From assembly GCA_028286585.1 (NCBI GenBank), contig JAQBRI010000008.1, positions 18,514-82,513 on the forward strand: DNA of 64,000 nt. Direction: 5' to 3'. This DNA comes from Candidatus Kaiserbacteria bacterium (GTDB lineage Bacteria > Patescibacteriota > Minisyncoccia > Phycocordibacterales > UBA2100). The position numbers and the translations under genes were made by a program. The stretch's first letter is position 1. Each line of letters opens with the position of its first letter. The notes under the pieces were generated by a model. It saw only the letters and a list, made by a program, of their open reading frames with translations, made no database searches and was not told where the DNA came from. Shown here one piece after another: positions 247 through 19,099 of this stretch.

Positions 247-371
247 AAAAGAGGCCGCGATTTCTCGCAGCCTTAAGGTTGAAGCAGGGTATACCATGCT
301 GACACTGTGTCCGCATGTCTTTTTATGGTATATCTTTGGGGTATTTTGTCAATTGGCTTTTCCCCTATACA

Positions 372-1397: not shown

Positions 1398-1415
1398 AAG
1401 TGTCAGTATTGTTTT

Positions 1416-1970: not shown

Positions 1971-2006
1971 GGCGGTATTCTAGCACGTGTTTGCTATACT
2001 ATTCAT

Positions 2007-2672: not shown

Positions 2673-2678
2673 ATACAT

Positions 2679-3230: not shown

Positions 3231-3246
3231 TATATAGTACTTTGCT

Positions 3247-4344: not shown

Positions 4345-4424
4345 ATTTCAATCCACTTGTAGTGAAATGAAGTTATTCGACTTTATACTCTTGCGCTTTT
4401 TTAAGCGTATGAAAATATTAAGTC

Positions 4425-7400
4425 ATGTCATATCGGACGCGTTATGGGTCTATACGCATCCTCCAAAAAGGTTCTCTTTTTTCGCGCTTCGCATCAATCA
4501 TTGTAAGTGCAACAATGTTGCTAAGTCCATTCTCGGCACTTGCACAAGAAACTCCACCCACTGACACGCCTTCTGACACTACGACCACTGCACCTACGAG
4601 CGATACTACTGATTCAACGGATGTGCCCCCAAGTGATTCAGCTGCGAGTACACCAACTGATACAACCCCGCCTTCAAGTGATAATGCGGCATCACAACCT
4701 AATCTGGACGCGCCTACAGATGAGTCTGATGTCTCATCGACCGCAGTTTCAAAAAAACCGATATCGATGACTTCCTCTGCATCAATTGTAGCCAACCCAA
4801 GCCCTCAAGATACGCCATATTCAAATGCCATGCCGCGCATTAATGTTCAAAAGGATAAGGGGAGTCTTTCCTATGGATATGACATTAAAGCTCCTCGAGG
4901 AATTAACGGTCTAACACCAGATGTATCATTAGGATATTTAAATAACAGAAGGGATGAAGGTTCTATTGTTGGGTTTGGTTGGGCATTGTCTGTCCCAAAA
5001 ATAAGTCGAGTCAATAAAACGGGTGTCGAAAATTTATATACATCCAATACATTCACATCATCTATAGACGATGAACTGGTACAAGTCGGTACTAGTACCA
5101 AATATGTTCCTCGTGTTGATAATGGTTCATATCGCTATTATGTTATGGCGACATCTTCATGGACAATGTATACAAAAGACGGTACCGTCTATACCTTTGG
5201 TGTACTACCCGAGTCTCGTGAGGCGTCTTCGACTAATATAGCGACTTGGTATGTTTCAACGAGTACCGATAGTAGAGGAAATGCAATCAGCTATCGTTAT
5301 ACTAATACGAACAATATTGTATATCCTGATTACATTACTTATGCGACGGAAGGTGGGGCACCAGGATTCAAAATACAATTTACATTACAAACACGCACAG
5401 ATCCAATTACATTATATAAAAATGGCTTTTCACAATCTATAACCCAACGAATCTCACAAATAGATGTTTACGTAGGTAGTGCAATACGTGATTCATATCT
5501 TCTTGGTTATACATCTGGAGTAAATGGTGTACGCTCACTCTTATCGAGTATCACTGAACAAGCAACAAGCAAAGAAGGGACAGTGACGACTTTGCCAGCA
5601 ACATTTTTTGCCTATAACGGTGCACTTACCTGGCAGGCCGGTACAAGTGCGCCTTATATAAATATAGTGTATGGACAAGTATTTCCATCTGGTTTACCAG
5701 GAATTCAAAAATTTGTCGATTCGAACAGTGATGGAATTAACGAGATACGTGCAGAATATTTCAGTAATACATTCACAAATTACATAACTTATTTTGACAC
5801 GGAAACAAACACCACAAAGAATGCGAATTCTTTTAGTGGAAATAGTCTAAGTATTGGATCAACCGGCAATATGAATTCATTTCCGGGACTTGGATATACT
5901 CCTTCTGAGGGAGTGGCAGATGGCAGTCTCATAGATACCAGAGGTAATTTTCAGCCAGATTATATTCATGCACAAGTTATTGATGCATCATGTACAGGTA
6001 CAGGAACACAACATTTTAACGGTGGCCTCTTTCTAAATACCGGTTCTTCAGCTGTGTCAAATACTTCGTCACCAACAAGTACTTCGCCAATTTTATCACT
6101 ATATTCATGTAATGGAGGGACTATTAGAGGGGGTGGAATGTGGGGAGATATAAACGGTGATGGTTTATTAGATGTTGCACAAAATAATTATAATATTGTC
6201 GCAGGTGGTTTTTTGGGTGCATATGGAATCTACCCAAATTCAGCTACATATACAAATAACTCTCATGGAGGGTTTACATATCAATCTCAATGGGAATCAC
6301 CACACTTAAGCGGATTTTATGATCCAAGCGGTCCAGTACCATATGATACTCAGTTGGTAGATCTCAATAATGACGGACTAGTTGATTTTTATTCGATCAA
6401 CAATACTAGCAGTCTTAATTTTTCGGCGTATTTAAATAATGGACAAGGTTTCTCGAGTGCTTCTAGTTCTTGGAATTATGCAACAGGTGGTGCCACGAGT
6501 CCTTTTGATGACGGGGTCCGAATGATGGATATAAATGGAGATGATTTGCCCGATATTGTTAGAAGTTATCATGTTGATCATCAATATGCAGGTACTTTTG
6601 CTTCGACTCCTCCATGGGTATCCGGTGGTAGCGTGAATGAAGTATACGTAAACACTGGTGATGGGTTTGTTGCATCAAGTTCTACGGTACCGGTTACGTT
6701 TGCATCGTATGTCGGAGGTTCAACCTCTTGTCCCACGTGTTCATATACGTGGAATAATGACTTTGCGCTTAATAATTATGCTGACACCGATGGAGACGGA
6801 TTGGTAGACCTGGGTACTCGAAGCGTCCCAAAGAAGGCCGATATGCTCGCCGTTATTACTTCAACAACTGGTGCCTCTACAACTATTTCATATACTCCTA
6901 CACCGCAAGAAATTCAAAGTGGCGCAATGCTGAATCCTAATCTCCCGATCATTATCTATACTCCAACTGAAATTAAAACAACAGATAATAGTGGAGTCTT
7001 ATCGGATACAACTTATTCATATACTAATGGCCTCATGTATTATGCGAGTTCGACAGATAAAACATTTGCTGGTTTTAAATCAGTTACCGAGACGTCCGGC
7101 AATCATGCAATAACGACATATTATTCTCAAGGAAATACAAATGATAGCTCTCTCGGTGAACAAAACGATCAGTATGCTCTTATCGGTAAACCATATCGCC
7201 AGGATGTTGCAAATTTAAGTGGCAATATTTTGCAGAAAACCTGGTATCGATATGTCGCGACACAACCAAATAGCAACAATTATTTAGTATTGCCGTCCGA
7301 CACGATAGTTCAATCATTTGATGTATCTAGTAACCATAGAGAACGTGCGACTCATTATGTATACGATTTATCAGGCAATCCTGTAGATGTCACTGATTAT

Positions 7401-10400
7401 GGAGAAGTGGCGGCAGCTGACAGTGTTATGTCATCATATTCAGATACTGGAAGCGATTTAAGTCGTACCCACTTCGAATATGCAACTTCAACAGCAACCT
7501 CAAGTGTTCCAAACATAACAACAAGTTATATATCTCGTGCGACTCAATATAATCAAGCCGGCATACAAATATCCGATACCAAACATTTATATGACAATCT
7601 CGCGTATGGTTTAGTGCAGCGTGGAAATGAAACACAAACTCCGCAGTGGATCTTTGGTTCAACATATGCAACAAGTACCCAATCCTACAACGCGTATGGA
7701 CTTATAATTTCCAAGAGTGATCCAAAATTTAGTACAACAACTATCGCATACGATTCAAATAATCTGTATCCAGCAACCACCACAAACGCACTTAATCAAA
7801 GCACACTCTACACCTATGATGTCCGATTCGGACTCGTAATTAAGTCAGTAGATCCTAACGGTCTCGTAGCGAGTACGTCATATGATGGTTTAGGCAGACC
7901 GCTCGAAATAGACGGACAAGATGCTTCAAGTACAATAGTTAAATTACTTTCGTATAACTACAATGATGCGACAAGCAGTCTCTCGATGCAAAAAATCACA
8001 TGGCTAAATGGAGCACTCAGTATCCCAGTATATTCCTACAAAGATGGATTGGGACGCACAATCCAAACTGCAACTCAGGCGGCCGTATCGCAATGGATAA
8101 TGCAAGATACAACTTACGACAGCAATGGTCGTGTGTACAGGCAATCGCTCCCATATTTTAATTCGACCTCGTCCAAAACAGCAGCAACGAGTACTGCATA
8201 TTTGTATTCCACAACTACATATGATGCTCTTGATAGGCCAGCAACAACCACAAACGCTATAGGTTTTTCGACGATCTTATATGGCACATGGAATAGCAAA
8301 GTTACGGATGCAAATGGACATATTAAGGACTATATAAAAGATGCTCGAGGTAATCTTGCTCAAGTTGTCGAGCATGGAACATCTATTGGCACTACAACAT
8401 ATGAATATGATGGAAAAAATAATCTTGCGACTACTACGGATGCAATGGGTAATATCCGACACTTCACGTATGACGGACTCAATCGACTTACGCTTTCTGA
8501 AGATCTACATTCAGCAACTGACACCTCGTTCGGATCCTATTCATATGCATACGACTTAGCGAATAATCTTACTAGTAAAATAACACCAAATGGTCTTACG
8601 ATAAGCAGTACGTATGATGTGCTGAATCGTCAGCTTACAGAAGATGCAACGACAACCTCAAATATTGATAGTACATATACTTATGACTCATGTACAAATG
8701 GTATTGGCAGACTGTGTAGCGCCTCATCGACTTCTGCAAAAATAACTAATTCTTATTATTTACCAGGATTTATTGCAAGTTCAACGACAACGATAAAAGG
8801 AATTAATTATTTATTATCGTATTTGTATGATCGGCAGGGAAATCAAATAAGCATTACGTATCCTGATAATTCACAAGTGATGTATTCATACGATGATGGC
8901 GGTTTAATTAGCCGCGTTCAGCATGCAGAAGTTGGAAGCGCACTGTCAGATGTAATTTCAAATATAAGTTACGCCCCCATAAACCAGCCAGCCATCATTT
9001 CATATGCTAACGGAGCAACAACTACTAAAACATACGATCCTGCATCGTTGTATAGACTCACGCGGATTTTTACCACAGCGAGTACCACCATTACAACAGT
9101 AAGTACTTCTACACTTGGTACATCAACGGTAAATATTTTAGTAGTTGGAGGCGGAGGTGGAGGCGGTAATGTTTCTGGACAAGGTGCCGGGGGAGGAGGC
9201 GCAGGAGGTTATCAAGCATACAGCTCATTTATATTGAGCCCACAAACATATACTGTCACGGTTGGAGCGGGAGGCAGTGCTGGAAGCAATGGAGGCAATA
9301 GTATATTTGATTCCATTACTGCTATTGGTGGTGGAGCCGGCGGTTTTTCTAATGGTGGTAATGGTGCAGCTGGTGGTTCTGGCGGAGGCGGAGGGGGAGC
9401 TGGATCAACTGGTGGCGCAGGTACTGCTGGGCAAGGACATTTTGGTGGAAATAACGGTAGTTTTTCAGGTGGATCAAGTGGTGGAGGAGCGACAGGCGTC
9501 GGCACAGATTCCGGTAGTCAAAATGGAGCTACAGGAGCGGCAGGTACTGCAAGTAGTATTAGTGGAACATCCGTTACTTATGCTGGAGGAGGCGGAGGTG
9601 GAGGCGGCGCAGCACCTAGTTCAGGACCAGGTGGCGCAGGAGGTGCTGGTGGTGGCGGTGCTGGAGGAGTAGGTGGATTTGGAGGCTACGGCATCGCAGG
9701 CACTGCTAATACTGGAGGCGGTGGTGGCGGGGGTGGCGCTACTAATGCTAATCCTGGCGGCGCTGGTGGATCTGGGATTGTAGTTATAAGTTATCCAACC
9801 GCTAATGCATCATTGTTTACGTGTAGTGCTTCAACTACTACATCGGGATCAAATAGTATTTGTAAATTTACATCAAGTGGAACATTTAGAATGGCAACAA
9901 CAACCGCAACAACCACTATAGTTACTACATATATTGGTGCTCCGCTACAGGATTTAAATTATACTTACGATGCAGTTGGTAACATTACTCGTTTCTTAGA
10001 TAATTCAATTACAGGAACAGCAAAAGATGTTGCATATACATATGACAATTTAAACAGACTTACACAAGCTCAAATCACCACTGCAACAAGTACTGCAGGT
10101 AGCTGGTATAACTCATCATGGAACTATCGCATACCTATTAATGCGAGTTCTACAAAGGTTTCGGAAGATACACACGATGTATATCTCGACCTCTCATTGC
10201 TACCTTCTACATTCCAATCAAATGTAAAATCGGATGGCTGCGATATCCGCATGACAAAATCAGATGGAACTACCGAGCTTGCAATAGATCTTGTGCGCTA
10301 TGGATCTGGCACAGGAGAGTTACATTTTTCGACAGGAAATGGTCTTTCAACCTCGACAGCAACAACATATTATCTTTATTATGGAAATGGCGGGGCATCA

Positions 10401-13040
10401 TGTTATGCAGCAAATGCCACATATGGAGCACAGAATGTATATGATACAAACACGAAAGGCGTTTGGCATCTCCAAGAAAATACTTCGGCTATAGGCGGGG
10501 TTAAGGACTCGACAGTCAATAGTCACAATGCAACGATGTACAGCAATTATTCAGCATTTGCAATCGGAACCTCTACTGGCAAGCTAGGATCTGCGGTAAC
10601 GTTTGATGGAATCGACGATACGATTGATGTGCCAGACAGCAGCGATTTTGAAGCAAACGCGATGACTATCGAATCGTGGGCATACTTCAACTCATTGCCA
10701 GGAACAAGGGGAGAGACTGCAGATCTTGTTGCCAAAAAACATGCTTCTTCACCTTGGTCTTCGTACGCATCATATGTATCTAGCCCAACTAACCGCGTGG
10801 ATGGTTCTTGGGCTGATGCAAGCGGAACGACAGCATACGCCGGAACGTCAGCTGGAGGAGGTGTAGCAACCAGTACCTGGACATACGCTGTATTGCGTCA
10901 TGATCCAGGAACTACAACTGCAGAGTTACAGGTACGTGCAAACGCATCGAGCGCAAATACATATACTGCAAATACTACTGGTACCACCTTTAATTCAAAT
11001 GATGTACTCCGATTTGGTGCAGACTATGCGGGAGGAAATAGACTTTCCGGGAGACTCGATGAAATTCGTATACATAACATCGCACTTAGTGATAATTATC
11101 TTTTGACGAGGTATAACAATATGAATTCGCCTTCGAATTTTTGGTCTGTCGGCAGCTCGACTCCATACTCGGCAACAACGTCATCGGTTTATACCGAAAC
11201 ATACACATACAACTTAATTGGTAACATACTTAACAAATCAAATGTTGGTGACTACACATACGCAGGTACCGGCTATGCTAATCCACACGCTGCTACAGCG
11301 ATTAGCGGTACTTCATACGCGTATGACCATAATGGAAACCTTACCTCTCAGGGCACAAAGAGCTACGCTTGGGATTTTAAAAATCAACTTACACAATCTG
11401 TCATAGGTGGTGCAACTACCACTTACGGCTACGACACTAACATGAATCGTGCTTTCCAAACAACTGGAAGTACAACTACGACATATCCAAGCATGTACTT
11501 CTCTTCTACCTATGCGACAAGTAGTACATCAACTTCTACAAAGAATATATTTGTAAATGGCGTACTATTGGCAACCGTTAATTCAACATCTGCAACAAGC
11601 TCGGGCACAGGTACCACAACTACCTATACGCTCTACAGCGATTCTCTCTCCTCCGGATGGGATGATTGGTCGTTTGGTACGACGAATGATTTTGCTGCAA
11701 CTACAACCGTTTATTCTGGTTCAAATTCACTAAAAGCTATCTATACAGGCGCCTGGGGCGGTGTGTATCTGCACAATACAGGCATCAGCACTGCATCTTC
11801 AACAGCACTGCATTTTGCGGTATTCTCGCCCGTTGCATCACCTTATCTCCAAGTACTTGCATATGGAGCAGGTGGCGGCGTCTTGGGCACGGCAGCTATA
11901 AGCGGCTATATTGCAGGAGGTTCAATATCTGCAAATACTTGGTATTCCGTAGATATCCCACTTACTGCACTTAGCGCCACTTCAACCACTGTCACTGGCT
12001 TTGCCTTCCAAAAAGACACTGCAGGCACTATTTACTACGACGACATTAAGCTGATCAATGGAAGCAGTACCGCTTCATCTGTCGTAACTACTACTCTAAG
12101 TTATATTCACCCGGATCTTCTAGGATCCACGAATGTAGTCACGGATGCGACGGCAAACGTGATACAAACACTTGATTACTATCCATACGGAGGAGTGAGA
12201 ATTAATACCGGAACAGACATAACTGCGAGAAAGTACATCGGACAATATCAGGATGCAACATCACTCGACTATCTTAACGCACGGTATTATGATTCAAGTA
12301 GAGGCCAGTTCTTGAGCGAGGATCCGGTGTTTTGGGATAAGCAGCAACTTGATGACCCGCAAAGTTTAAATAGCTATAGTTACGCAAATAATAATCCTGT
12401 ATTGCTACGAGATCCAAGTGGCAGAACACCAAAATGGTTGAATGACTCGGTAAATATTTATACTTTTGGTACTATGGATGCTGCGACAGATATTTGGGCA
12501 AGCAATGCATCAGTTGGCGATAAGGTAAGTGCAGGTTTTTTACTTGGAAATGTCGCGCTCGAAAATACATTACTTTTAGGGATAACGGCATTAAGTTTTG
12601 GTGGGGCTAGTGCACTTGTGCCAGAAGTAGCTGCTAATGGCGCATCATCACGTGCACAATTGCAATCAATACGAATGAGTGTGCAGGAAGAAGTAAATTC
12701 ACTACCAAGTCCTGCCACAGTTGCATCAAGAATAAACTCCGGAGAAGTAGAGCTTTCCAGCGGATTATATTCTCGACCATCAAATGCGACGACACCTGCA
12801 ATGAGACAGGGTGTTAATTATCCCAATGTTACTTGTTCAACATGTGGAAAAAGCGGTGTTCAAATGTATGCCGACCATACTCCAAGTTTAGTTACAGAAT
12901 ATTACACTACTGGTAAAATTGATTATTCTGCATTACGTTTGAGCGCTTCTGTAAGACCGCAATGTGCTTCCTGCTCAGTGCAGCAGGGTGCATTGCTTAG
13001 TTCATGGTCTAAGCAAATAAAAAATAATATTAATAAATGA
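4425..13040 (+). CDS. giant secreted Rhs/YD-repeat polymorphic toxin (Tc-toxin TcB/TcC-like)
   Basis: - Signal peptide: FASIIVSATMLLSPFSALA-QE.
- S/T/P-rich linker.
- SpvB-domain signature: YGYDIKAPRGINGLTPDVSLGYLNNRRDEGSIVGFGWALSVPKISR.
- FG-GAP motifs: DINGDGLLDV, DLNNDGLVDF, DINGDDLPDIV, DTDGDGLVDL.
- Many YD repeats, for example YEYDGKNNL, FTYDGLNRLT, YAYDLANNLT, YTYDAVGNIT.
- Gly-rich insert.
- DUF2341-like (YYLYYGNGGAS) plus LamG-like (DEIRIHNIAL) module.
- RHS core: ARYYDSSRGQFLSEDPV.
- Cleavage-type motif PVLLRDPSGR.
- About 205-aa variable C-terminal domain. Confidence 0.85.
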   Translation: MSYRTRYGSIRILQKGSLFSRFASIIVSATMLLSPFSALAQETPPTDTPSDTTTTAPTSDTTDSTDVPPSDSAASTPTDTTPPSSDNAASQPNLDAPTDESDVSSTAVSKKPISMTSSASIVANPSPQDTPYSNAMPRINVQKDKGSLSYGYDIKAPRGINGLTPDVSLGYLNNRRDEGSIVGFGWALSVPKISRVNKTGVENLYTSNTFTSSIDDELVQVGTSTKYVPRVDNGSYRYYVMATSSWTMYTKDGTVYTFGVLPESREASSTNIATWYVSTSTDSRGNAISYRYTNTNNIVYPDYITYATEGGAPGFKIQFTLQTRTDPITLYKNGFSQSITQRISQIDVYVGSAIRDSYLLGYTSGVNGVRSLLSSITEQATSKEGTVTTLPATFFAYNGALTWQAGTSAPYINIVYGQVFPSGLPGIQKFVDSNSDGINEIRAEYFSNTFTNYITYFDTETNTTKNANSFSGNSLSIGSTGNMNSFPGLGYTPSEGVADGSLIDTRGNFQPDYIHAQVIDASCTGTGTQHFNGGLFLNTGSSAVSNTSSPTSTSPILSLYSCNGGTIRGGGMWGDINGDGLLDVAQNNYNIVAGGFLGAYGIYPNSATYTNNSHGGFTYQSQWESPHLSGFYDPSGPVPYDTQLVDLNNDGLVDFYSINNTSSLNFSAYLNNGQGFSSASSSWNYATGGATSPFDDGVRMMDINGDDLPDIVRSYHVDHQYAGTFASTPPWVSGGSVNEVYVNTGDGFVASSSTVPVTFASYVGGSTSCPTCSYTWNNDFALNNYADTDGDGLVDLGTRSVPKKADMLAVITSTTGASTTISYTPTPQEIQSGAMLNPNLPIIIYTPTEIKTTDNSGVLSDTTYSYTNGLMYYASSTDKTFAGFKSVTETSGNHAITTYYSQGNTNDSSLGEQNDQYALIGKPYRQDVANLSGNILQKTWYRYVATQPNSNNYLVLPSDTIVQSFDVSSNHRERATHYVYDLSGNPVDVTDYGEVAAADSVMSSYSDTGSDLSRTHFEYATSTATSSVPNITTSYISRATQYNQAGIQISDTKHLYDNLAYGLVQRGNETQTPQWIFGSTYATSTQSYNAYGLIISKSDPKFSTTTIAYDSNNLYPATTTNALNQSTLYTYDVRFGLVIKSVDPNGLVASTSYDGLGRPLEIDGQDASSTIVKLLSYNYNDATSSLSMQKITWLNGALSIPVYSYKDGLGRTIQTATQAAVSQWIMQDTTYDSNGRVYRQSLPYFNSTSSKTAATSTAYLYSTTTYDALDRPATTTNAIGFSTILYGTWNSKVTDANGHIKDYIKDARGNLAQVVEHGTSIGTTTYEYDGKNNLATTTDAMGNIRHFTYDGLNRLTLSEDLHSATDTSFGSYSYAYDLANNLTSKITPNGLTISSTYDVLNRQLTEDATTTSNIDSTYTYDSCTNGIGRLCSASSTSAKITNSYYLPGFIASSTTTIKGINYLLSYLYDRQGNQISITYPDNSQVMYSYDDGGLISRVQHAEVGSALSDVISNISYAPINQPAIISYANGATTTKTYDPASLYRLTRIFTTASTTITTVSTSTLGTSTVNILVVGGGGGGGNVSGQGAGGGGAGGYQAYSSFILSPQTYTVTVGAGGSAGSNGGNSIFDSITAIGGGAGGFSNGGNGAAGGSGGGGGGAGSTGGAGTAGQGHFGGNNGSFSGGSSGGGATGVGTDSGSQNGATGAAGTASSISGTSVTYAGGGGGGGGAAPSSGPGGAGGAGGGGAGGVGGFGGYGIAGTANTGGGGGGGGATNANPGGAGGSGIVVISYPTANASLFTCSASTTTSGSNSICKFTSSGTFRMATTTATTTIVTTYIGAPLQDLNYTYDAVGNITRFLDNSITGTAKDVAYTYDNLNRLTQAQITTATSTAGSWYNSSWNYRIPINASSTKVSEDTHDVYLDLSLLPSTFQSNVKSDGCDIRMTKSDGTTELAIDLVRYGSGTGELHFSTGNGLSTSTATTYYLYYGNGGASCYAANATYGAQNVYDTNTKGVWHLQENTSAIGGVKDSTVNSHNATMYSNYSAFAIGTSTGKLGSAVTFDGIDDTIDVPDSSDFEANAMTIESWAYFNSLPGTRGETADLVAKKHASSPWSSYASYVSSPTNRVDGSWADASGTTAYAGTSAGGGVATSTWTYAVLRHDPGTTTAELQVRANASSANTYTANTTGTTFNSNDVLRFGADYAGGNRLSGRLDEIRIHNIALSDNYLLTRYNNMNSPSNFWSVGSSTPYSATTSSVYTETYTYNLIGNILNKSNVGDYTYAGTGYANPHAATAISGTSYAYDHNGNLTSQGTKSYAWDFKNQLTQSVIGGATTTYGYDTNMNRAFQTTGSTTTTYPSMYFSSTYATSSTSTSTKNIFVNGVLLATVNSTSATSSGTGTTTTYTLYSDSLSSGWDDWSFGTTNDFAATTTVYSGSNSLKAIYTGAWGGVYLHNTGISTASSTALHFAVFSPVASPYLQVLAYGAGGGVLGTAAISGYIAGGSISANTWYSVDIPLTALSATSTTVTGFAFQKDTAGTIYYDDIKLINGSSTASSVVTTTLSYIHPDLLGSTNVVTDATANVIQTLDYYPYGGVRINTGTDITARKYIGQYQDATSLDYLNARYYDSSRGQFLSEDPVFWDKQQLDDPQSLNSYSYANNNPVLLRDPSGRTPKWLNDSVNIYTFGTMDAATDIWASNASVGDKVSAGFLLGNVALENTLLLGITALSFGGASALVPEVAANGASSRAQLQSIRMSVQEEVNSLPSPATVASRINSGEVELSSGLYSRPSNATTPAMRQGVNYPNVTCSTCGKSGVQMYADHTPSLVTEYYTTGKIDYSALRLSASVRPQCASCSVQQGALLSSWSKQIKNNINK
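12423..13037 (+). other. hypervariable C-terminal toxin domain of the Rhs protein (unassigned family; two CxxC motifs flank a conserved His)
   Basis: Starts right after DPSG (12411-12422). Contains ...CSTCGKSGVQMYADHTPSL...PQCASCS..., suggesting a Zn-binding module. No confident family call. Confidence 0.45.
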
Positions 13041-13402
13041 GTATGAACCAAAATATATTAAATGAACAGCAAGATATTGTGATTAAGGTGCGGACAACTC
13101 TTGTGCCGTGCGAACCCCAGTCTATGATTGGGGTCGATGAGGGTATATCGAAAAAAATATATCCAATTAATGGTTTAAGACATCCAGTGAATGGTGGTGG
13201 TTCGGGTTGGTTTATTTGGTCCAGTGTAAAAGAAATTCCTCAAGATAATCCAAATTTTTTTAAACCTACACATGCACAGCATATTTATGAATCTTACCCA
13301 TTAATTTCTAAATATCTCGGTCTTCCACCCGGATGGCGCTTTTTAATTGATGACAAGGGGTATGAGGATATTTGGTACGATGCGTCTTTGTTTGAAGTTT
13401 AA
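13037..13402 (+). CDS. putative cognate immunity protein of the Rhs toxin (hypothetical 121 aa)
   Basis: Start overlaps the rhs stop (ATGA, 13037/13040). Small cytoplasmic protein with no known domain. The position is the canonical immunity-gene slot. Confidence 0.5.
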   Translation: MSMNQNILNEQQDIVIKVRTTLVPCEPQSMIGVDEGISKKIYPINGLRHPVNGGGSGWFIWSSVKEIPQDNPNFFKPTHAQHIYESYPLISKYLGLPPGWRFLIDDKGYEDIWYDASLFEV

Positions 13403-13560
13403 CGGTCCTGTTTGGAATGATACTGTCAGGTACTATTTAAATCAAAATTTTTTGTAAAATAATCATATGTCTCGTGACCACGTTTTTCATGCAAATTAAA
13501 TCTAATATCACTTTCCCTGATTAATATGATCAAAAAAATTTCATTCAAAGCTGTAATTAT

Positions 13561-13632
13561 TGCAAATAATGGGGTCAGCCACGATTTATTAAGACATGCA
13601 AATAATGGGGTCAGCCACGATTTATTAAGACA
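13561..13632 (+). repeat. two perfect tandem 36-bp copies of a REP-like element (core AATGGGGTCAGCCACGATTTATTAAGACA)
   Basis: tgcaaataatggggtcagccacgatttattaagaca occurs at 13561-13596 and again at 13597-13632. Confidence 0.85.
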
Positions 13633-13640
13633 AAAATAAT

Positions 13641-13865
13641 ATGAATTCAATTACATTCAGTACTGAAGAATTGATAATTATTAGTGCCGCAATCAGAGAG
13701 ACCTTAGAAGAGCTTGATATCAATGAATTTCAAACTAGAACAGGATTTAATCCGGATAAGTTTGAAGAGTTATACAAAAAAATCGACGAGTGTATCCAGG
13801 GTTAAATGCAAGATGTTCTGGAATAATGCAATAAATGGGGTCAGCCACGGTTTAATTATTGAATA
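13641..13865 (+). CDS. small hypothetical ORF (74 aa) read directly from the sequence; its 3' end runs into a REP copy
   Basis: atg at 13641, in-frame stop taa at 13863-13865. Translates as MNSITFSTEELIIISAAIRETLEELDINEFQTRTGFNPDKFEELYKKIDECIQVKCKMFWNNAINGVSHGLIIE. Absent from the supplied ORF track, so treat it as tentative. The last ~13 aa are REP-encoded. Confidence 0.25.
13833..13860 (+). repeat. REP-like element, left inverted copy flanking the RAYT gene
   Basis: Sequence aatggggtcagccacggtttaattattg. It pairs with the inverted copy at 14575-14595. Confidence 0.8.
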
Positions 13866-13889
13866 ACCTAAAAATGGTATCAATAATTA

Positions 13890-14585
13890 ATGTTACAATT
13901 TCTGTATATGGCACGGGGCGCCAGAGTAGATGTTGGGGGATACATATATCACGTACTCAATCGAGCAAATGCACGATTGCAGATTTTTGATTGCCGAAAA
14001 GATTATCTTCAATTTGAGTCTATTCTCGAGGAAGCAGTTGAGAAATTTGGAATACATCTTCTCGCGTATTGCATAATGCCAAATCACTGGCATTTGGTTA
14101 TTAAAACCGTAGAAGATAGAGATTTACAGAAGTTCATGTGCTGGCTTTCAAATACGCACACGAGGCGTTTTCATGGTGCAAAGCGTACCATCGGCCACGG
14201 TCATTTGTATCAAGGGCGATATAAATCTTTTCTATGCGAAGAAGATCAGCATTTCCTTACTCTCATGCGCTATGTAGAGCGCAACGCAAAGAAGGCAAAT
14301 ATTGTTCCTCTAGCTGAAGATTGGGAATGGTCCAGTGTATGGAGGCGTGAAAGAGGAACCCAAAAGCAAAGAGCACTTCTTACACCACCTCCGGTGCCGC
14401 TCCCTACACAGTATCTTGTGTGGCTCAATGAGCCACAAACAGAATCAGAAGAAATTGCACTAGAGCATGCAATAGAAAAAAACGTACCCTTTGGTACACT
14501 GAATTGGGTCGGGACAATTATTAATACATTTGGTATGCAGCAAACACAAAGAGGAGCTGGAAGACCGAGGATTAATCGTGGCTGA
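13890..14585 (+). mobile_element. REP-associated tyrosine transposase (RAYT; IS200/IS605-like HuH Y1 transposase, COG1943-type)
   Basis: HuH motif MPNHWHLVI and catalytic region GHLYQGRYKSF (aromatic-Q-x-R-aromatic, as in WQRRFWEH of RAYTs). Flanked by inverted REP copies. The stop codon lies inside the right REP. Confidence 0.75.
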
Positions 14586-14595
14586 CCCCATTTCC
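14575..14595 (-). repeat. REP-like element, right inverted copy overlapping the RAYT stop codon
   Basis: Plus strand reads atcgtggctgaccccatttcc. Its reverse complement is ggaaatggggtcagccacgat. Confidence 0.8.
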
Positions 14596-14630
14596 TCACA
14601 GATAAATCTTCAAAAAAAGACTAAAATATT

Positions 14631-14888
14631 ATGAAAAATTTTTTCTTTGGAATTGCTTGCGGAATTATTATTGAAGCACTTAGTGCTTTACCAGTATATC
14701 GATTCGTACAAAGTTTTTATAGTAACTATGTCGATCCCGCACCTTATTTACTTGAGTATCCTGCAATAATACTCATATTTATTGGAATATACCTGCTTTT
14801 AAAGAAGCAATATATAATCCTTGGAGGTATGATTGCCGGTTTTATAGGTAGTTTATTGATACTAGCGTTTCTGCTTAGCGGCGCATAA
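14631..14888 (+). CDS. small hypothetical membrane protein (85 aa, 2-3 TM) inside the REP-delimited segment
   Basis: Hydrophobic segments FFFGIACGIIIEALSAL and AIILIFIGIYLLL...GGMIAGFIGSLLILAFLL. No family. Confidence 0.35.
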   Translation: MKNFFFGIACGIIIEALSALPVYRFVQSFYSNYVDPAPYLLEYPAIILIFIGIYLLLKKQYIILGGMIAGFIGSLLILAFLLSGA

Positions 14889-14893
14889 AAGTG

Positions 14894-14920
14894 AAAATTG
14901 GGATCAGCCACCATTTTATA
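14894..14920 (+). repeat. degenerate REP-like copy
   Basis: Sequence aaattgggatcagccaccatttta carries two substitutions in the core. Confidence 0.5.
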
Positions 14921-15003
14921 CTTTTCTTCTAATAAAGGGGACAGGCACAATTAATTTTAGAAAACTATGACAATAAATATGCCTGTCCTTATTTTCTTAT
15001 CGT

Positions 15004-15330
15004 ATGAATAAAAATCAAATAAGATTAGTTATTGCAAATGATTTGAGAGGCAGGGCGCATGTAGATCGTTTTAGACAAAAGCAAGATTTAGCTGAAAAAT
15101 TTAATATTGATGCCGGTGATGTGCATAATCAAATTCATCAAATGATGGACTTGGGACAAGTGGTGTCATTAAATGAGCACGAAATACGACTTTCAGTGGA
15201 CGGTGAGAGATTTTATTTCTCGGGCAAGACTGAAAAGATTTCAGAATTCTTTAAAGAGAATTGGCCACATATAACTTCGAATACAATTGCTATTTTAGCA
15301 CTTCTTATATCAATCTTCTTAAAAAGATAA
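15004..15330 (+). CDS. hypothetical protein (108 aa) inside the REP-delimited segment
   Basis: Intact ORF with a C-terminal hydrophobic tail (TIAILALLISIFL). No recognisable domain. Confidence 0.35.
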   Translation: MNKNQIRLVIANDLRGRAHVDRFRQKQDLAEKFNIDAGDVHNQIHQMMDLGQVVSLNEHEIRLSVDGERFYFSGKTEKISEFFKENWPHITSNTIAILALLISIFLKR

Positions 15331-15370
15331 TTTTGATTCTTATTCCTGAAACCAAAAAATTAGAAAGGTG

Positions 15371-15400
15371 ATAATGGGGTCAGCCACGATTTAATTACTG
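15371..15400 (+). repeat. REP-like element, a direct copy nearly identical over 37 bp to the one at 13833
   Basis: ataatggggtcagccacgatttaattactgaataa versus aatggggtcagccacggtttaattattgaataa at 13833. Confidence 0.8.
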
Positions 15401-15410
15401 AATAAAATAG

Positions 15411-15670
15411 TATCCGGTTCTTATAAGTTAGTGAATTTAAATATAATATATAGAGAAGGCGCGGCACCTCGAGAATGCCGCGCTCCCGAGTCATGTCCGA
15501 TATTCTGGACAGACCCGTCTTGGTCATGAGAGTAGTGACGGGGGAGGCTTGGCTTTGAACCCAATCCGATCACTTACGCAGGACGACCAATGCAAATCTG
15601 GCTAAACTATAGAGAATTCAGTACATTATGTCAACTATGAGCATCCTAAAATTGCGCTACAATAAGCGGT
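15411..15670 (+). promoter_or_regulatory. GC-rich hairpin-dense leader upstream of proS (possible cis-regulatory RNA; T-box not confirmed)
   Basis: Hairpins GCGCGGCAcctcgagaaTGCCGCGC and CCCGTCttggtcatgagagtagtGACGGG. No canonical GGGTGGNACCGCG T-box motif seen. Confidence 0.2.
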
Positions 15671-16924
15671 ATGAAGCAATCACAGCTATTCACCCGTACC
15701 AGAAAGGATGCCCCAAAAGATGAAGTTTCAAAGAATGCACAGCTCCTGATTCGTGCCGGATATATTCATAAAGAGATGGCAGGTGTGTATTCGTATCTAC
15801 CACTTGGACTCAGAGTGTTTAATAATATTATTAAGATCATTCGTGAAGAGATGAATGCAATCGGTGGTCAGGAAATCACGATGACCACATTACAATCACC
15901 AAAAGTCTGGGAACAGACAGGACGCTGGAATGATGAGGTTATTGATGTGTGGTTTAAGACTGCGCTAAAAGATGGCGCCGAAGTTGGTCTTGGAGTAACA
16001 CACGAAGAGCCACTCACAGCACTTATGACTGAATACATTCAGTCACATAAGGATCTGCCTGTGTACGTATATCAGTTCCAAACCAAATTTCGTAATGAAA
16101 CCCGTGCAAAAAGCGGCATTATGCGAACACGAGAATTTGTGATGAAGGACATGTATTCGTTTAGTAAGTCCCAAGAAGAATTCAAAATATTTTATGAAAA
16201 GTGCGCAGCAGCATACAAAACAATCTTTGAAAGAGTAGGGCTTGGTAACCATACGTTTCGGACTTTTGCCTCGGGTGGGTCATTTTCAAAGTTTAGCGAT
16301 GAATTTCAAACAATCTGTGAAGCAGGAGAAGATACAATTTATATCCACCGAGCAAAGAACATCGCAATAAATAAGGAGGTCTACAACGAAGAAACTGTCA
16401 AAGATCTAGGTGTTACCATGGAAGAATTTGATCAGGCAAAAGCAGTCGAGGTGGGAAATATCTTTCCACTCGGAACCCGGTTTTCGGATGTGCTTGATTT
16501 AAATTATAAGGATGAGACCGGAAAGGCAATTCCTGTTGTCATGGGTTCGTATGGCATTGGTCCTGCAAGACTTATGGGTACCATTGTTGAGGTATTGTCC
16601 GACGAAAAGGGTATTGTATGGCCAAAAGAGGTTGCGCCATTTGCAGTACATCTTGTTTCGCTTGCGGGAGATAATGTCGACGTCAAAAAGGAGGCAGATC
16701 GCATGTATGAACTTTTGACAGAGAATGGCATCGAAGCTCTCTATGATGATCGGGATCTTCGTGCGGGAGAAAAATTTGCAGACAGTGATTTGATAGGTAT
16801 CCCGCTTCGAATGATCGTTTCCGAAAAGTCGATGGCTGCTGGTAATGTCGAAATAATAAATCGTGCCGACGGAAGCGTGCAGCGCATTGCAGAAAGTAAA
16901 ATAATAGAATTTTTGAAAGGCTAA
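15671..16924 (+). CDS. proS: prolyl-tRNA synthetase (short bacterial-type form without the INS editing insertion)
   Basis: N-terminus MKQSQLFTRTRKDAPKDEVSKNAQLLIRAGYIHK..YSYLPLGLRV. Motif 2 TREFVMKDMYSF. C-terminal class-II anticodon-binding domain. Only 417 aa. Confidence 0.85.
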   Translation: MKQSQLFTRTRKDAPKDEVSKNAQLLIRAGYIHKEMAGVYSYLPLGLRVFNNIIKIIREEMNAIGGQEITMTTLQSPKVWEQTGRWNDEVIDVWFKTALKDGAEVGLGVTHEEPLTALMTEYIQSHKDLPVYVYQFQTKFRNETRAKSGIMRTREFVMKDMYSFSKSQEEFKIFYEKCAAAYKTIFERVGLGNHTFRTFASGGSFSKFSDEFQTICEAGEDTIYIHRAKNIAINKEVYNEETVKDLGVTMEEFDQAKAVEVGNIFPLGTRFSDVLDLNYKDETGKAIPVVMGSYGIGPARLMGTIVEVLSDEKGIVWPKEVAPFAVHLVSLAGDNVDVKKEADRMYELLTENGIEALYDDRDLRAGEKFADSDLIGIPLRMIVSEKSMAAGNVEIINRADGSVQRIAESKIIEFLKG

Positions 16925-16927
16925 TGT

Positions 16928-18001
16928 ATGTTGTGGTTTCAAAAAATGAGGCGCCGGATCATGAGTATGCTTTCCAATGATTTGGGAATTGATCTTGGTA
17001 CTGCAAATACGCTCGTGTATGTAAAAGGTAAAGGCATTGTCATCAATGAGCCATCAATCGTCGCACTGAACCAAAAAACGGGATCTTTTGTAGCTGTGGG
17101 AGCGCAGGCAAAGGATATGCTTGGCCGCACACCGGCACACATTATTGCAGTACGTCCTATTGTTGACGGAGTTATATCAGACTTTGAGGTAACGGCAGAA
17201 ATGCTTGCGTACCTTATTAACAAGGCGCAAAAAACATCACCAAAAATGTTTGGTCCTCGTGTTGTGGTTGGTGTTCCGTCTGGAATTACCTCTGTCGAAG
17301 CTCGTGCAGTGCGCGACGCAGCACGCGCAGCAGGCGCTCTCGAAGTCCACATTGTCGAAGAGCCAATGGCAGCTGCTATTGGTATCGAGTTGCCGATCCA
17401 TGATCCTTCTGGAAGTATGGTCATTGATATCGGTGGCGGTACAACTGATGTGGGTATCACGGCTTTGGGCGGTTTGGTTCGGGCACGAAATATTCGGATT
17501 GCAGGAGACAGATTTAATTCCGATATCGTGAGCCATGTGCGCAATGAATTCAAACTTCTTATTGGAGACAAAACCGCTGAAGAAACCAAGATTGCGACGG
17601 CATCTGTTATTGCTTCCAAGCTGCCAATCGAATGGAAAGTGCGCGGACGCGACTTGGTCACAGGATTGCCGCGCGAAATTATTATCACTGATCAAGATGT
17701 TCGAAACGCAATCGCGCATTCTATGGAAGAGCTTGTAGAACAAATCAGAGAAGTGCTCGAATCGGCGCCTCCTGAGATTGTTTCTGATGTGCTGCAGCGG
17801 GGAGTGTTGCTGGCCGGAGGCGGAGCACTTATTCGCGGCATGCCGGAATTTTTGTCGGATGCTTTGGGGGGACTCGAGGTACGCGTTGCTTCGGAACCTC
17901 TTACAGCTGTTGTGCGCGGTACCGCCGCTATTTTGGATGATTTGGAATTGTACGAGGATTCGTTGTTGCATGCCGACGACGAACTGGTGCCGACTGAGTA
18001 A
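16928..18001 (+). CDS. mreB: rod shape-determining protein MreB (paralog 2, first gene of mreBCD-mrdA)
   Basis: Motifs GIDLGTANTLVYV, DIGGGTTDVGI and VLLAGGGALIRGM. Confidence 0.9.
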   Translation: MLWFQKMRRRIMSMLSNDLGIDLGTANTLVYVKGKGIVINEPSIVALNQKTGSFVAVGAQAKDMLGRTPAHIIAVRPIVDGVISDFEVTAEMLAYLINKAQKTSPKMFGPRVVVGVPSGITSVEARAVRDAARAAGALEVHIVEEPMAAAIGIELPIHDPSGSMVIDIGGGTTDVGITALGGLVRARNIRIAGDRFNSDIVSHVRNEFKLLIGDKTAEETKIATASVIASKLPIEWKVRGRDLVTGLPREIIITDQDVRNAIAHSMEELVEQIREVLESAPPEIVSDVLQRGVLLAGGGALIRGMPEFLSDALGGLEVRVASEPLTAVVRGTAAILDDLELYEDSLLHADDELVPTE

Positions 18002-18003
18002 TC

Positions 18004-18795: not shown

Positions 18796-18802
18796 ATTTT
18801 CT

Positions 18803-19099
18803 ATGAATCCTTTTTCTGATAACCGGGCACAGCTGTATCAAAATGGATATACGCCCTGGCTGCGGATAGCTGTACTATTTTTTGGACTTATTTTTATTAC
18901 CGTGCTTCCGTGGTGGATCAATATGATTTGGATGACACTCTTGATCATGCGCTGCCGCGCCTGGGAAGTACTTGTTTTTGCTTTTGCGATGGATGCATTG
19001 TATCTCGTCCCGTCACCGCACATTCTTATTCCGTGGTGCACCATTGTTGCTCTGCTTTTACTGTGTTCATTTGAACCGCTCAGGAATTATTTTTTGTAA
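18803..19099 (+). CDS. mreD: MreD-like small polytopic membrane protein
   Basis: Three TM segments with Trp-rich loops. Position between mreC and PBP2. Start taken at MNPFSD, after the mreC stop. Confidence 0.45.
   Translation: MNPFSDNRAQLYQNGYTPWLRIAVLFFGLIFITVLPWWINMIWMTLLIMRCRAWEVLVFAFAMDALYLVPSPHILIPWCTIVALLLLCSFEPLRNYFL

What the first reader, a model, noticed from the sequence alone, without database searches (positions are those of the whole stretch)
13403..15410. REP/RAYT mobile-element cluster directly downstream of the toxin-immunity pair
A 25-bp motif (AATGGGGTCAGCCACGATTTAATTA) occurs at least six times within 1.9 kb. The copies are two perfect tandem 36-bp units (13561-13632), an inverted pair bracketing a 231-aa HuH Y1 transposase with RAYT-type motifs (13833-13860 and 14575-14595), and three more direct copies (14894, 15371). 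The right inverted copy overlaps the transposase stop codon.

The segment also carries three small orphan ORFs (13641-13865, 14631-14888, 15004-15330). They could be alternative immunity genes or toxin remnants, as commonly accumulate downstream of rhs genes.

The juxtaposition suggests the REP/RAYT system marks, or helped create, the insertion of the rhs cassette.
Basis: seen in the sequence. Interest (0 to 1): 0.6.

Follow-up and report, generated by a model that had tools for sequence, protein, structure and literature searches.

The report
Tyrosine-transposase repeat cluster beside Rhs toxin
This is a real but already described kind of element, a single-strand-DNA "tyrosine transposase" gene bracketed by its own inverted repeats with extra repeat copies around it. 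It sits at the far end of an 11-kb Rhs toxin island in a Candidatus Kaiserbacteria genome, and relatives of the gene lie next to Rhs toxin genes unusually often.

Summary
A 16-19 nt core (AATGGGGTCAGCCACGATT) occurs six times plus one degenerate copy within 13561-15409 and nowhere else in the 64 kb. An inverted pair brackets a 231-aa Y1 HUH gene (13890-14585), and the 3' copy contains its TGA stop codon.

The label "REP/RAYT" is only partly right. The repeats lack the GTAG foot, fold no better than shuffled sequence, and are not dispersed in the DNA available. They carry the GGGGWSAS motif that defines a "TIRtron" (TIRYT gene plus terminal inverted repeats; Di Nocera 2013; probably Quentin 2018 subclass 2.1).

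The gene belongs to a family of more than 6,700 proteins, mostly from Patescibacteria. In 58 of about 79 complete homologous genes examined the stop codon lies inside CTGAC of the 3' repeat, usually with an inverted copy upstream of the start.

Three relatives keep holB-frr-rseP-proS contiguous. Rhs, the immunity gene and the repeat cluster are therefore an 11.1-kb insertion, with the last repeat about 30 nt from its right edge.

In 11 of 87 other loci an Rhs core end lies within 2 kb of the gene. No paper in the searchable library reports this association.

The small ORFs show no toxin remnants. One is a 5'-truncated duplicate of a gene elsewhere in the genome, and the homology ends exactly at a repeat edge.

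The parts
4345..15436 (+). 11.1-kb island inserted between rseP and proS. It holds Rhs, the Imm33-like gene and the repeat cluster.
   Evidence: L206, L208 and L209 (ProS 90, 77 and 74% identical) have holB-frr-rseP-proS contiguous, with spacers of 254, 190 and 72 nt. Homology to L206 stops at window 4343 and resumes at about 15437 by eye, or at 15572 by blastn. GC is 34-41% in the island against 44-50% in the flanks.
4425..13040 (+). Rhs/YD-repeat polymorphic toxin, 2871 aa
   Evidence: ORF. It is the only match in the window to the Rhs-core profile built (E 9e-104). It is homologous to the Rhs genes beside TIRYT genes in other loci.
13037..13402 (+). Imm33-like immunity gene, 121 aa
   Evidence: Pfam PF24719 Imm33-like, E 1.1e-33.
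13561..13632 (+). Repeat (TIR) copies 1 and 2: two perfect 36-bp tandem units
   Evidence: Cores at 13571 and 13607 with 0 mismatches.
13641..13805 (+). orf54, a small acidic ORF of unknown function lying between repeat copies 2 and 3
   Evidence: ORF. No family hits in Pfam, NCBIfam or PADLOC.
13819..14595 (+). Conserved TIRtron unit: left repeat, Y1 gene, right repeat
   Evidence: 78% nt identity to L115 9932-10715. Homology ends exactly at the outer edge of the right repeat and about 14 nt outside the left repeat, and the flanks beyond are unrelated.
13827..13862 (+). Repeat copy 3, the upstream (left) TIR of the gene. It contains GGGGTCAG, which fits GGGGWSAS.
   Evidence: The motif is defined in PMC3733652.
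13890..14585 (+). TIRYT / RAYT-like Y1 HUH gene, 231 aa
   Evidence: Pfam Y1_Tnp E 6e-18. NCBIfam RAYT 57.5 bits against IS200 18.4 bits. AF2 model pLDDT 88, best PDB match 4ER8. More than 6,700 homologues. Single copy in the window.
14571..14593 (-). Repeat copy 4, the right TIR, inverted. The stop codon TGA 14583-14585 lies in its centre (CTGAC).
   Evidence: The same register is seen in 58 homologous genes.
14631..14888 (+). orf85, a small hydrophobic (membrane-type) ORF
   Evidence: ORF. No family hits. Weak similarity only (30% over 50 aa, E 0.006) to the 86-aa membrane ORF that follows the orphan toxin in L115.
14890..14925 (+). Repeat copy 5, degenerate. Its reverse complement, AATGGTGGCTGATCCCAATT, resembles the TIR type of other lineages.
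   Evidence: Compare the L138 and L143 TIRs.
14927..14990 (+). REPIN-like inverted dimer of a variant repeat (GGGGACAGGCAC). The arms are 14939-14953 and 14974-14988.
   Evidence: It is the only part of the cluster that folds significantly (z -3.1). It is 86% conserved with L115 12185-12226.
14996..15366 (+). Duplicated segment carrying orf108 (15004-15330, a weak sub-threshold HTH-like match plus a hydrophobic, TM-like C-terminus). It is a 5'-truncated copy of a gene elsewhere in the same genome.
   Evidence: The paralogue is JWO50_758, 70% aa identity. There is 76% nt identity to L210 4547-4917. The right end of the homology is exactly the left edge of repeat copy 6. The HTH hits are weak.
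15366..15409 (+). Repeat copy 6, the last copy, about 30 nt from the island's right junction

Best explanation
The segment is a TIRtron. It consists of a RAYT-like Y1 HUH single-strand-DNA nuclease/transposase gene (TIRYT) bracketed by an inverted pair of its cognate about 20-nt terminal repeats of GGGGWSAS type. The 3' repeat supplies the gene's stop codon. A small local family of further repeat copies surrounds the gene: a tandem pair, a degenerate copy, a REPIN-like dimer of a variant, and a terminal copy. These copies are interleaved with small cargo ORFs. The whole cluster forms the distal end of an 11-kb Rhs toxin/immunity island inserted between rseP and proS in a Candidatus Kaiserbacteria genome.

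By homology with RAYT and IS200/IS605 enzymes, the protein is inferred to bind the repeat as single-stranded DNA and to cut and rejoin it through HUH (H66/H68) and Tyr128. Occasional events of this kind would generate the local repeat copies and repeat-bounded rearrangements. The conserved bracketing pair keeps gene and target together and may let the protein regulate itself.

**Shown:** identity, anatomy, family-wide conservation, the insertion, and the Rhs co-location.

**Inferred:** catalysis on these repeats, the origin of the extra copies, and any role in the Rhs island.
For: **Protein.**
- Y1_Tnp at E 6e-18.
- Closer to NCBI's RAYT model (57.5 bits) than to its IS200 model (18.4 bits).
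- HUH and Tyr align with ISDra2 TnpA.
- AF2 model has pLDDT 88, and its best PDB match is the REP-bound RAYT 4ER8 (E 2e-8).

**Repeats.**
- Six copies plus one degenerate copy, against 0.03 expected.
- The GGGGTCAG core fits the published TIR consensus GGGGWSAS.

**Discrete unit.** Homology with the 81%-identical relative L115 covers only repeat-gene-repeat.

**Family-wide pattern.**
- 58 of about 79 complete homologous genes examined end in CTGAC inside the 3' repeat.
- Of those 58, 51 have an inverted copy within 200 nt upstream; the gap to the ATG is mostly 17 or 32-33 nt.
- The repeat co-varies with the gene lineage (AATGGTGGCTGACCCCATT, AAAGGTTCCTGACACCTTT, AAGGGTACCTGACACCGTT).
- The 3' repeat 20-mer is identical in 10 loci whose proteins are only 61-98% identical (median 67%), while the adjoining non-coding DNA cannot be aligned; the upstream, non-coding copy is also identical in 8 of them.

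**Low copy number.** 2-3 copies per 20 kb in L201, L203, L205 and L115. None outside the cluster in the window or in L210.

**Signs of past activity.**
- A tandem duplication.
- The right half-site is duplicated downstream in 16 of 58 loci.
- The orf108 duplicate ends exactly at a repeat edge.

**Island.**
Against: - No biochemical evidence exists for any TIRYT.
- Single repeat copies do not fold better than shuffled sequence. Stem covariation across lineages is modest: 73% against 68% paired, and a one-column slide scores nearly as well. Recognition as a hairpin is therefore not established.
- The protein has HWH and Y---NA, not the HuH residues and Y---NP signature listed for class 2 in PMC6006769.
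- No HTH family was detected in the C-terminal extension.
- Whole-genome copy number could not be measured, so a dispersed family elsewhere in the roughly 1-Mb genome is not excluded.
Confidence: 0.7

Rival explanations
1. Canonical REP/RAYT system: the repeat is a genome-wide dispersed palindromic REP or REPIN family mobilised by a single-copy RAYT, and this locus is its REPtron.
For: - An inverted repeat pair flanks a RAYT-like gene.
- The best structural match is the E. coli RAYT 4ER8.
- One REPIN-like dimer is present at 14927-14990.
- The gene is single copy in the window.
Against: - There is no GT[AG]G foot, and hairpins are weak or not significant.
- No copies lie in 62 kb of the window outside the cluster, or in 8.8 kb of a second contig assembled from the same sequencing run (L210).
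- Relatives have only 2-3 copies per 20 kb.
- The protein scores below NCBI's RAYT equivalog cut-off.
- The genome-contig scan returned 113 stretches; the 80 listed are single matches and none is multi-copy. About 139 matches are expected by chance for a 17-mer in 596 Gb.
Confidence: 0.1
2. An autonomous insertion sequence of the IS200/IS605 type that happened to land in the Rhs 3' flank. The repeats are its ends, and the extra copies are relics of earlier insertions.
For: - The repeat-gene-repeat unit is discrete, with unrelated flanks in two related genomes.
- It sits at different chromosomal sites in close relatives: rseP/proS here and gatA in L115.
- L173 has two family members in one array.
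Against: - The ends are inverted, not same-strand LE/RE hairpins.
- The protein is 231 aa and scores 18 bits against the IS200 model (cut-off 55).
- There is no tnpB.
- Identity of 60-66% across Patescibacteria, one copy per locus, and a shared gatA-X left flank between a Kaiserbacteria relative and a Nomurabacteria genome point to long residence, not IS-like turnover.
- No copies are present in viral contigs.
Confidence: 0.08
3. The repeats are recombination sites of a cassette system. The Y1 enzyme would capture, excise or shuffle toxin/immunity and other small cassettes at the 3' end of Rhs genes. This would resemble an integron but use an HUH enzyme.
For: - Repeats and small ORFs alternate across the cluster.
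- The orf108 segment is copied from another locus, with one end exactly at a repeat edge and the other just after the repeat dimer.
- An Rhs core end lies within 2 kb in 11 of 87 other loci, on the same strand.
- In L126 and L165 an Rhs reading frame runs straight into a repeat at or near the core/toxin junction.
- In L115 and L173 the gene sits between Rhs modules.
Against: - About 86% of loci have no Rhs nearby.
- Most loci have only the bracketing pair.
- The cargo ORFs here are not recognisable toxin or immunity genes.
- No consistent junction is seen within Rhs.
- No polymorphism or excision data exist.
Confidence: 0.1
4. The repeats are purely regulatory double-stranded DNA sites (operators, promoter elements or terminators) for the flanking small genes and have no mobility.
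For: - The upstream copy sits at a fixed distance from the ATG, next to an extended -10-like motif.
- The sequence is quasi-palindromic, as expected for a dimer binding site.
Against: - Promoter and terminator scans are at chance level.
- This does not explain the copy in the stop codon, the tandem and half-site duplications, or the strict co-variation with an HUH nuclease gene.
Confidence: 0.05

Closest known systems
TIRtron / TIRYT (Di Nocera et al. 2013, PMC3733652). Quentin et al. 2018 (PMC6006769) suggest it probably corresponds to their TnpA-Y1 subclass 2.1.
   Same: - A RAYT-like Y1 gene flanked by terminal inverted repeats and not by GTAG REPs.
- The repeats share GGGGWSAS (here GGGGTCAG).
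- The repeats lie at a roughly fixed distance from the gene and may overlap its 3' end.
- Small or moderate repeat families are arranged as singles, dimers or clusters.
- The protein has a C-terminal extension.
   Different: - The described examples came from Acidobacteria, Proteobacteria and other phyla, not Patescibacteria.
- This clade has HWH and Y---NA motifs.
- No Bac_DnaA_C or other HTH family was detected in its C-terminal 80 aa.
- The stop-codon-in-repeat register is conserved across the family.
- Co-location with Rhs toxins was not reported in those papers.
E. coli-type REPtron: RAYT/TnpA-REP with REP/BIME/REPIN (Nunvar 2010; Ton-Hoang 2012; Messing 2012, PDB 4ER8; Bertels and Rainey 2011)
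   Same: - The gene appears single-copy (one copy in the 64-kb window; low intragenomic copy number is reported for class 2 in PMC6006769) and is bracketed by inverted copies of its cognate repeat.
- This is the closest solved fold.
- Repeat type co-varies with the gene.
- One inverted dimer is present.
   Different: - No GTAG guide tetranucleotide.
- No stable hairpin.
- No sign of hundreds of dispersed copies.
- The protein is about 70 aa longer.
- It scores below the NCBI RAYT equivalog threshold.
IS200/IS605 insertion sequences (IS608, ISDra2)
   Same: An HUH/Tyr catalytic core that can be aligned residue by residue. The chemistry is presumed to act on single-stranded DNA.
   Different: - IS ends are same-strand subterminal hairpins, not inverted repeats.
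- TnpA is about 130-150 aa.
- These elements are often multi-copy and carry tnpB.
- None of these features is seen here.
Rhs orphan toxin/immunity arrays, and the H-rpt (ISAs1-family) elements inside E. coli Rhs elements (from my own knowledge, not checked here)
   Same: A transposase-type gene and small orphan ORFs accumulate just downstream of a large rhs gene. Orphan modules retain the Rhs core end (L115, L173, L201).
   Different: The resident enzyme here is a Y1 HUH protein with its own inverted repeats, not a DDE transposase. The window's own small ORFs carry no Rhs core remnant.

Membership tests
TIRtron / TIRYT (Di Nocera 2013) | RAYT-like Y1 (HUH + Tyr) gene | tested here: met
   Y1_Tnp E 6e-18. 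HUH is H66-W67-H68 and Tyr is Y128, aligned to ISDra2. Best fold match is 4ER8.
TIRtron / TIRYT (Di Nocera 2013) | Gene flanked by terminal inverted repeats that are not GTAG REPs | tested here: met
   Arms 13833-13852 and 14574-14593 are 95% complementary. No GTAG foot is visible in the sequence.
TIRtron / TIRYT (Di Nocera 2013) | GGGGWSAS motif in the repeat | tested here: met
   The main repeat has GGGGTCAG and the variant has GGGGACAG. The consensus is quoted.
TIRtron / TIRYT (Di Nocera 2013) | Repeats at a conserved distance from, or overlapping, the coding sequence | tested here: met
   The 3' repeat holds the stop codon in 58 homologous genes. The upstream gap is mostly 17 or 32-33 nt.
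Quentin 2018 TnpA-Y1 subclass 2.1 | C-terminal extension resembling an HTH (Bac_DnaA_C, HTH_23 or HTH_28) | tested here: inconclusive
   A helical extension of about 80 aa is predicted with confidence, with helices at 175-220. No Pfam HTH family was found at E <= 0.1.
Quentin 2018 class 2 | Y---NP tyrosine motif, and HuH with u = L, V, I, F, Y or M | tested here: not met
   The family has Y128-V-E-R-N132-A133 (Y---NA) and H-W-H, invariant or nearly so in 55 sequences. The signature is quoted.
Canonical REP/RAYT (REPtron) | Repeat is a stable imperfect palindrome with a 5' GT[AG]G foot | tested here: not met
   No GTAG. Single-copy folds have z from -0.84 to +0.58. Covariation is modest.
Canonical REP/RAYT (REPtron) | Repeat family dispersed in many intergenic regions (typically more than 100 per genome) | tested here: not met
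   0 copies in 62 kb of the window outside the cluster and 0 in 8.8 kb of L210, assembled from the same sequencing run. The whole genome was not available, so this is a partial test.
Canonical REP/RAYT (REPtron) | Protein passes the curated RAYT model | tested here: not met
   NF047646 scores 57.5 bits against a cut-off of 80.
IS200/IS605 insertion sequence | TnpA passes the IS200 model. Ends are same-strand hairpins. Several near-identical copies are present. | tested here: not met
   NF033573 scores 18.4 bits against a cut-off of 55. The ends are inverted. One copy is present in the window.
Integron-like cassette array | IntI tyrosine recombinase and attC sites | tested here: not met
   No integrase was seen among the ORFs read around the cluster (1-4,600 and 9,000-19,000). 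The rest of the window was not examined for protein genes. The repeats are 20-36 nt and lack attC architecture.

The most novel reading that the evidence does not exclude
In Patescibacteria and some other phyla, the TIRYT enzyme and its repeats are not bystanders but a working part of Rhs loci. In this reading an HUH single-strand-DNA recombinase uses the repeats as joining sites to bring in, duplicate or displace small gene cassettes, including orphan toxin/immunity modules, at the 3' end of rhs genes. The evidence does not exclude this. The gene lies within 2 kb of an Rhs core end in 12 of 88 loci, always at the distal side or between modules. Rhs reading frames run directly into a repeat in two lineages. 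In this window a segment copied from another locus ends exactly at a repeat edge.
Probability: 0.12. Interest if true: 0.75.

Novelty: new member of a known kind. Interest (0 to 1): 0.45.

Why it matters
TIRYT/TIRtron elements were named in 2013. In the searchable literature they are mentioned in only two works, and nothing is known about what they do.

This window shows that a very large and well-conserved clade of them lives in the tiny genomes of Patescibacteria. There are more than 6,700 proteins, 60-66% identical across classes. The architecture is rigid: the stop codon sits inside the 3' repeat, and the upstream repeat abuts the start. The 20-nt repeat is more conserved than the protein. 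That degree of constraint in streamlined genomes argues for a maintained function, not for junk.

The recurrent position next to Rhs toxins gives a concrete, testable lead on that function. It also bears on how Rhs toxin/immunity arrays diversify in episymbiotic bacteria.

For annotation, the practical point is that these genes should not be labelled IS200 transposases or canonical RAYTs.

Tried and rejected
- **Rfam.** The gathering search on the whole window and a permissive search on 13300-15800 gave nothing in or near the cluster.
- **Single-repeat folding.** Folding as DNA on both strands was not significant except for the 14927-14990 dimer.
- **Genome-contig scan.** The window's 17-mer gave only chance-level single hits, so the source species is not represented with this repeat and the whole-genome copy number stayed untestable.
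- **Promoter and terminator scan.** At chance level.
- **PADLOC, Pfam and NCBIfam on the small ORFs.** No credible family.
- **Homologues of the small ORFs near other TIRYT genes.** None by tblastn. Only a weak orf85/L115-86aa similarity was found.
- **Viral contigs.** Two repeat variants gave 0 hits, so the element does not appear to be phage-borne.
- **Integron reading.** Rejected: no integrase was seen in the ORFs read around the cluster, and there is no attC.
- **Literature.** A search for a RAYT-Rhs link found only papers mentioning both terms in unrelated contexts.
Full report
**1. The observation**

The region was read directly.
- The 16-nt core GGGGTCAGCCACGATT occurs six times at <=2 mismatches: 13571, 13607, 13837, 14900 and 15376 on the + strand, and 14574 on the - strand. 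Shuffles predict 0.03.
- A seventh, more degenerate copy lies at 14937. No copy lies anywhere else in the 64 kb.
- Copies 1 and 2 are two perfect 36-bp tandem units at 13561-13632.
- Copies 3 and 4 form an inverted pair (13833-13852 and 14574-14593, 95% complementary). They bracket ORF 13890-14585, and the TGA stop (14583-14585) sits in the middle of copy 4.

- The full 25-mer is exact only once, and occurs four times at <=3 mismatches.
- The first small ORF ends at 13805, not 13865.
- The unlisted 'third direct copy' is 14927-14962.

**2. The protein**

- The 231-aa product matches Pfam Y1_Tnp at E 6e-18.
- It scores 57.5 bits on NCBI's RAYT model, whose cut-off is 80. It scores 18.4 bits on the IS200 model, whose cut-off is 55.
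- A profile of the family aligns to ISDra2 TnpA. The HUH motif falls on H66-W67-H68 and the catalytic tyrosine on Y128.
- An AlphaFold model built from 55 homologues is confident (pLDDT 88, pTM 0.86). Its best solved match is 4ER8, the E. coli REP-associated transposase bound to a REP hairpin (E 2e-8). ISDra2, IS200 and IS608 follow.
- About 80 C-terminal residues form extra helices with no recognised family.
- The gene is single copy in the window.

**3. The family**

- The protein is JWO50_514 of a Candidatus Kaiserbacteria MAG.
- It has more than 6,700 homologues of about 224 aa. Those listed are 60-66% identical and come from Kaiserbacteria, Uhrbacteria, Nomurabacteria, Minisyncoccia and others.
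- I fetched 80 metagenome loci and eight long-contig loci.
- In 58 of about 79 complete genes the stop codon is the TGA of an invariant CTGAC inside a roughly 20-nt repeat. Of those 58, 51 have an inverted copy within 200 nt upstream; the gap to the ATG is mostly 17 or 32-33 nt.
- The repeat changes with the gene lineage: AATGGTGGCTGACCCCATT, AAAGGTTCCTGACACCTTT, AAGGGTACCTGACACCGTT. The window and its 81% relative have AATCGTGGCTGACCCCATT.
- The 3' repeat 20-mer is identical in ten loci whose proteins are only 61-98% identical (median 67%), while the neighbouring non-coding DNA cannot be aligned; the upstream, non-coding copy is also identical in eight of them. The repeat is therefore under strong selection.
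- Between the window and L115, nucleotide homology covers only repeat-gene-repeat (13819-14595) and stops exactly at the outer edge of the right repeat. The unit is discrete.

**4. Is it a REP?**

- Single copies fold no better than shuffles (z -0.84 to +0.58).
- Across 37 distinct lineage variants, a stem around the CTGA loop is 73% paired against 68% in shuffles. Its covariation score is 0.145 against 0.083 (0/500 shuffles reach it). A one-column slide scores 0.121, so support for a hairpin is modest.
- There is no GT[AG]G foot.
- Copy number is low. L201, L203, L205 and L115 have 2-3 copies per 20 kb.
- No copy lies outside the cluster in the window. None lies in 8.8 kb of a second contig assembled from the same sequencing run (L210), or in 79 kb from the relatives' proS loci L206-L209.
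- At E. coli-like REP density, several copies would be expected in that much sequence. This is my inference.
- The genome-contig scan for the 17-mer returned 113 stretches; the 80 listed are single matches. About 139 are expected by chance (my arithmetic).

**5. What it is called**

Di Nocera et al. 2013 (PMC3733652) described RAYT-like genes flanked by terminal inverted repeats, not by GTAG REPs, and named them TIRtrons and TIRYTs.
- Many of the repeats share GGGGWSAS and lie at similar distances from the gene, sometimes overlapping it.
- Some genomes hold moderate repeat families arranged as singles, dimers or clusters.

Quentin et al. 2018 (PMC6006769) place most TIRYTs in subclass 2.1. That subclass has a C-terminal extension and no canonical REPs.

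The window's repeat (GGGGTCAG) and its variant (GGGGACAG) fit the motif, and the anatomy fits point for point. There are three differences:
- the clade has HWH and Y---NA, not the listed class-2 signatures;
- no HTH family is detectable in the tail;
- Patescibacteria were not among the described hosts.

'TIRYT' occurs in only those two works in the searchable library.

**6. The island**

- ProS homologues 90, 77 and 74% identical sit in contigs where holB, frr, rseP, proS, mreB and mreC are contiguous. The rseP-proS spacers are 254, 190 and 72 nt.
- In the window the two genes are 11.3 kb apart.
- Homology to the closest relative ends at the rseP stop (4343). By eye it resumes at about 15437, which is the start of the ancestral spacer with its terminator-like hairpin.
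- The island is therefore 4345-15436. It holds Rhs (2871 aa), an Imm33-like gene (E 1e-33) and the repeat cluster.
- The last repeat (15366-15409) is about 30 nt from the right junction. No repeat lies at the left end.
- Island GC is lower than that of the flanks.

**7. Rhs association**

- A profile of the Rhs core end was searched against six-frame translations of 84 independent TIRYT loci and found hits in 11. Pfam annotation of three further long-contig loci shows no Rhs, giving 11 of 87.
- The main hit in every locus is on the gene's strand (one extra minus-strand fragment in L126). All lie within 2 kb, and ten within about 700 nt.
- If hits were uniformly placed in the sampled flanks, this would have P = 2e-4.
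- L201 and L203 repeat the window's layout: giant Rhs, small ORF(s), then TIRYT.
- In L115 and L173 the gene lies between Rhs modules, and L173 has two TIRYT genes in one array.
- In L126 and L165 an Rhs reading frame runs directly into a repeat.
- Four of eight long-contig loci, counting the window, have Rhs beside the gene and four do not. The association is frequent but not obligatory.
- L115 and L203 share the left flank gatA-X. The X proteins are 32% identical (E 5e-37), which suggests long residence at that site.
- I found no paper reporting this association.

**8. The small ORFs**

- None has a credible family.
- No Rhs core remnant exists in 13403-15410.
- orf108 has a paralogue in the same MAG, JWO50_758 (70% aa).
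- At the DNA level, window 14996-15366 matches L210 4547-4917 at 76%.
- The match begins inside the longer L210 gene, so the window copy is 5'-truncated. It ends exactly where repeat copy 6 begins. L210 itself has no repeat.
- The paralogue has weak HTH hits; both copies end in a hydrophobic, TM-like C-terminus (seen in the sequences).
- orf85 is a small membrane protein with only faint similarity to the ORF following the orphan toxin in L115.
- The immunity or toxin-remnant idea is therefore unsupported. The orf108 junction does suggest that DNA between repeats has been moved or copied.

**9. Mechanism, and how sure**

The identity as a TIRtron at the end of an Rhs island is well supported, at about 0.7.

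The following is inferred from homology with RAYT and IS200/IS605 enzymes and from footprints. The protein would bind its repeat as single-stranded DNA, cut and rejoin through HUH and Tyr128, and thereby generate the local copies. The footprints are the tandem duplication, the half-site duplications in 16 of 58 loci and the repeat-bounded duplicate.

Why it sits by Rhs is open. One possibility is neutral accumulation and co-transfer in a recombination-prone flank. The other is an active role in cassette turnover. I give the active reading about 0.12.

**10. Verdict**

The finding is real and was correctly spotted. It is better classified as a TIRtron than as REP/RAYT, and it is a new member of a known but almost unstudied kind. 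The family-wide architecture and the Rhs co-location are the parts worth following up.

Noticed in passing
window 15437-15670: This is the ancestral rseP-proS spacer. It has a terminator-like hairpin (15459-15483) followed by a leader whose last roughly 100 nt before the proS ATG are about 80% conserved with the closest relative. No Rfam family matches, so it may be an uncharacterised proS leader.
   Followed up: partly
L201, L203, L124, L134, L143, L145, L164, L174 and others, just downstream of the 3' repeat: In 16 of 58 loci the right half-site (CTGAC plus about 6 nt) is repeated again within 45 nt downstream of the gene, for example ...GGCTGACCCCATTTCTGACCCCATTTCC. This may be a footprint of cleavage and rejoining, or a target-site mimic.
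   Followed up: partly
window 13853-13889; upstream regions of L123, L132, L139, L140, L203, L205: Between the upstream repeat and the ATG, many loci carry a TGnTAnnAT-like extended -10 motif that ends about 6 nt before the start codon. This would give a leaderless mRNA whose promoter abuts the repeat, and so possible autoregulation.
   Followed up: no
L173 2224-2895 and 4555-5226: Two different TIRYT genes lie within one Rhs/orphan-module array on a 6-kb contig.
   Followed up: no
L115 8975-9679 and L203 257-877: The same left flank (gatA plus a homologous 206-234-aa protein, 32% identical, E 5e-37) precedes the TIRYT locus in a Kaiserbacteria relative and in a complete Nomurabacteria genome. 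This suggests an old, shared chromosomal site.
   Followed up: partly
L210 3694-4881 (contig assembled from the same sequencing run; carries JWO50_758 of the source MAG): The full-length paralogue of orf108 (120 aa, weak HTH hits, hydrophobic TM-like C-terminus) lies 6 nt downstream of a 272-aa protein with a C-terminal zinc-ribbon-like CxxC...CxxC. This may be a two-gene module of unknown function.
   Followed up: partly
window about 9200-9700 (inside rhs): The Rhs protein carries a long glycine-rich insert (runs of GGGGGG/GAGG). It coincides with a local GC and GC-skew spike.
   Followed up: no
window 52356-52433: An AdoCbl-II riboswitch hit scores barely above the gathering score (37.3 against 36.5 bits). 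It lies in a region rich in tRNA genes.
   Followed up: no
window 315-1397 and 16928-18001: Two MreB-family paralogues are present: one about 0.5 kb upstream of holB, the other immediately downstream of proS. The relatives L206, L208 and L209 show the same arrangement.
   Followed up: no
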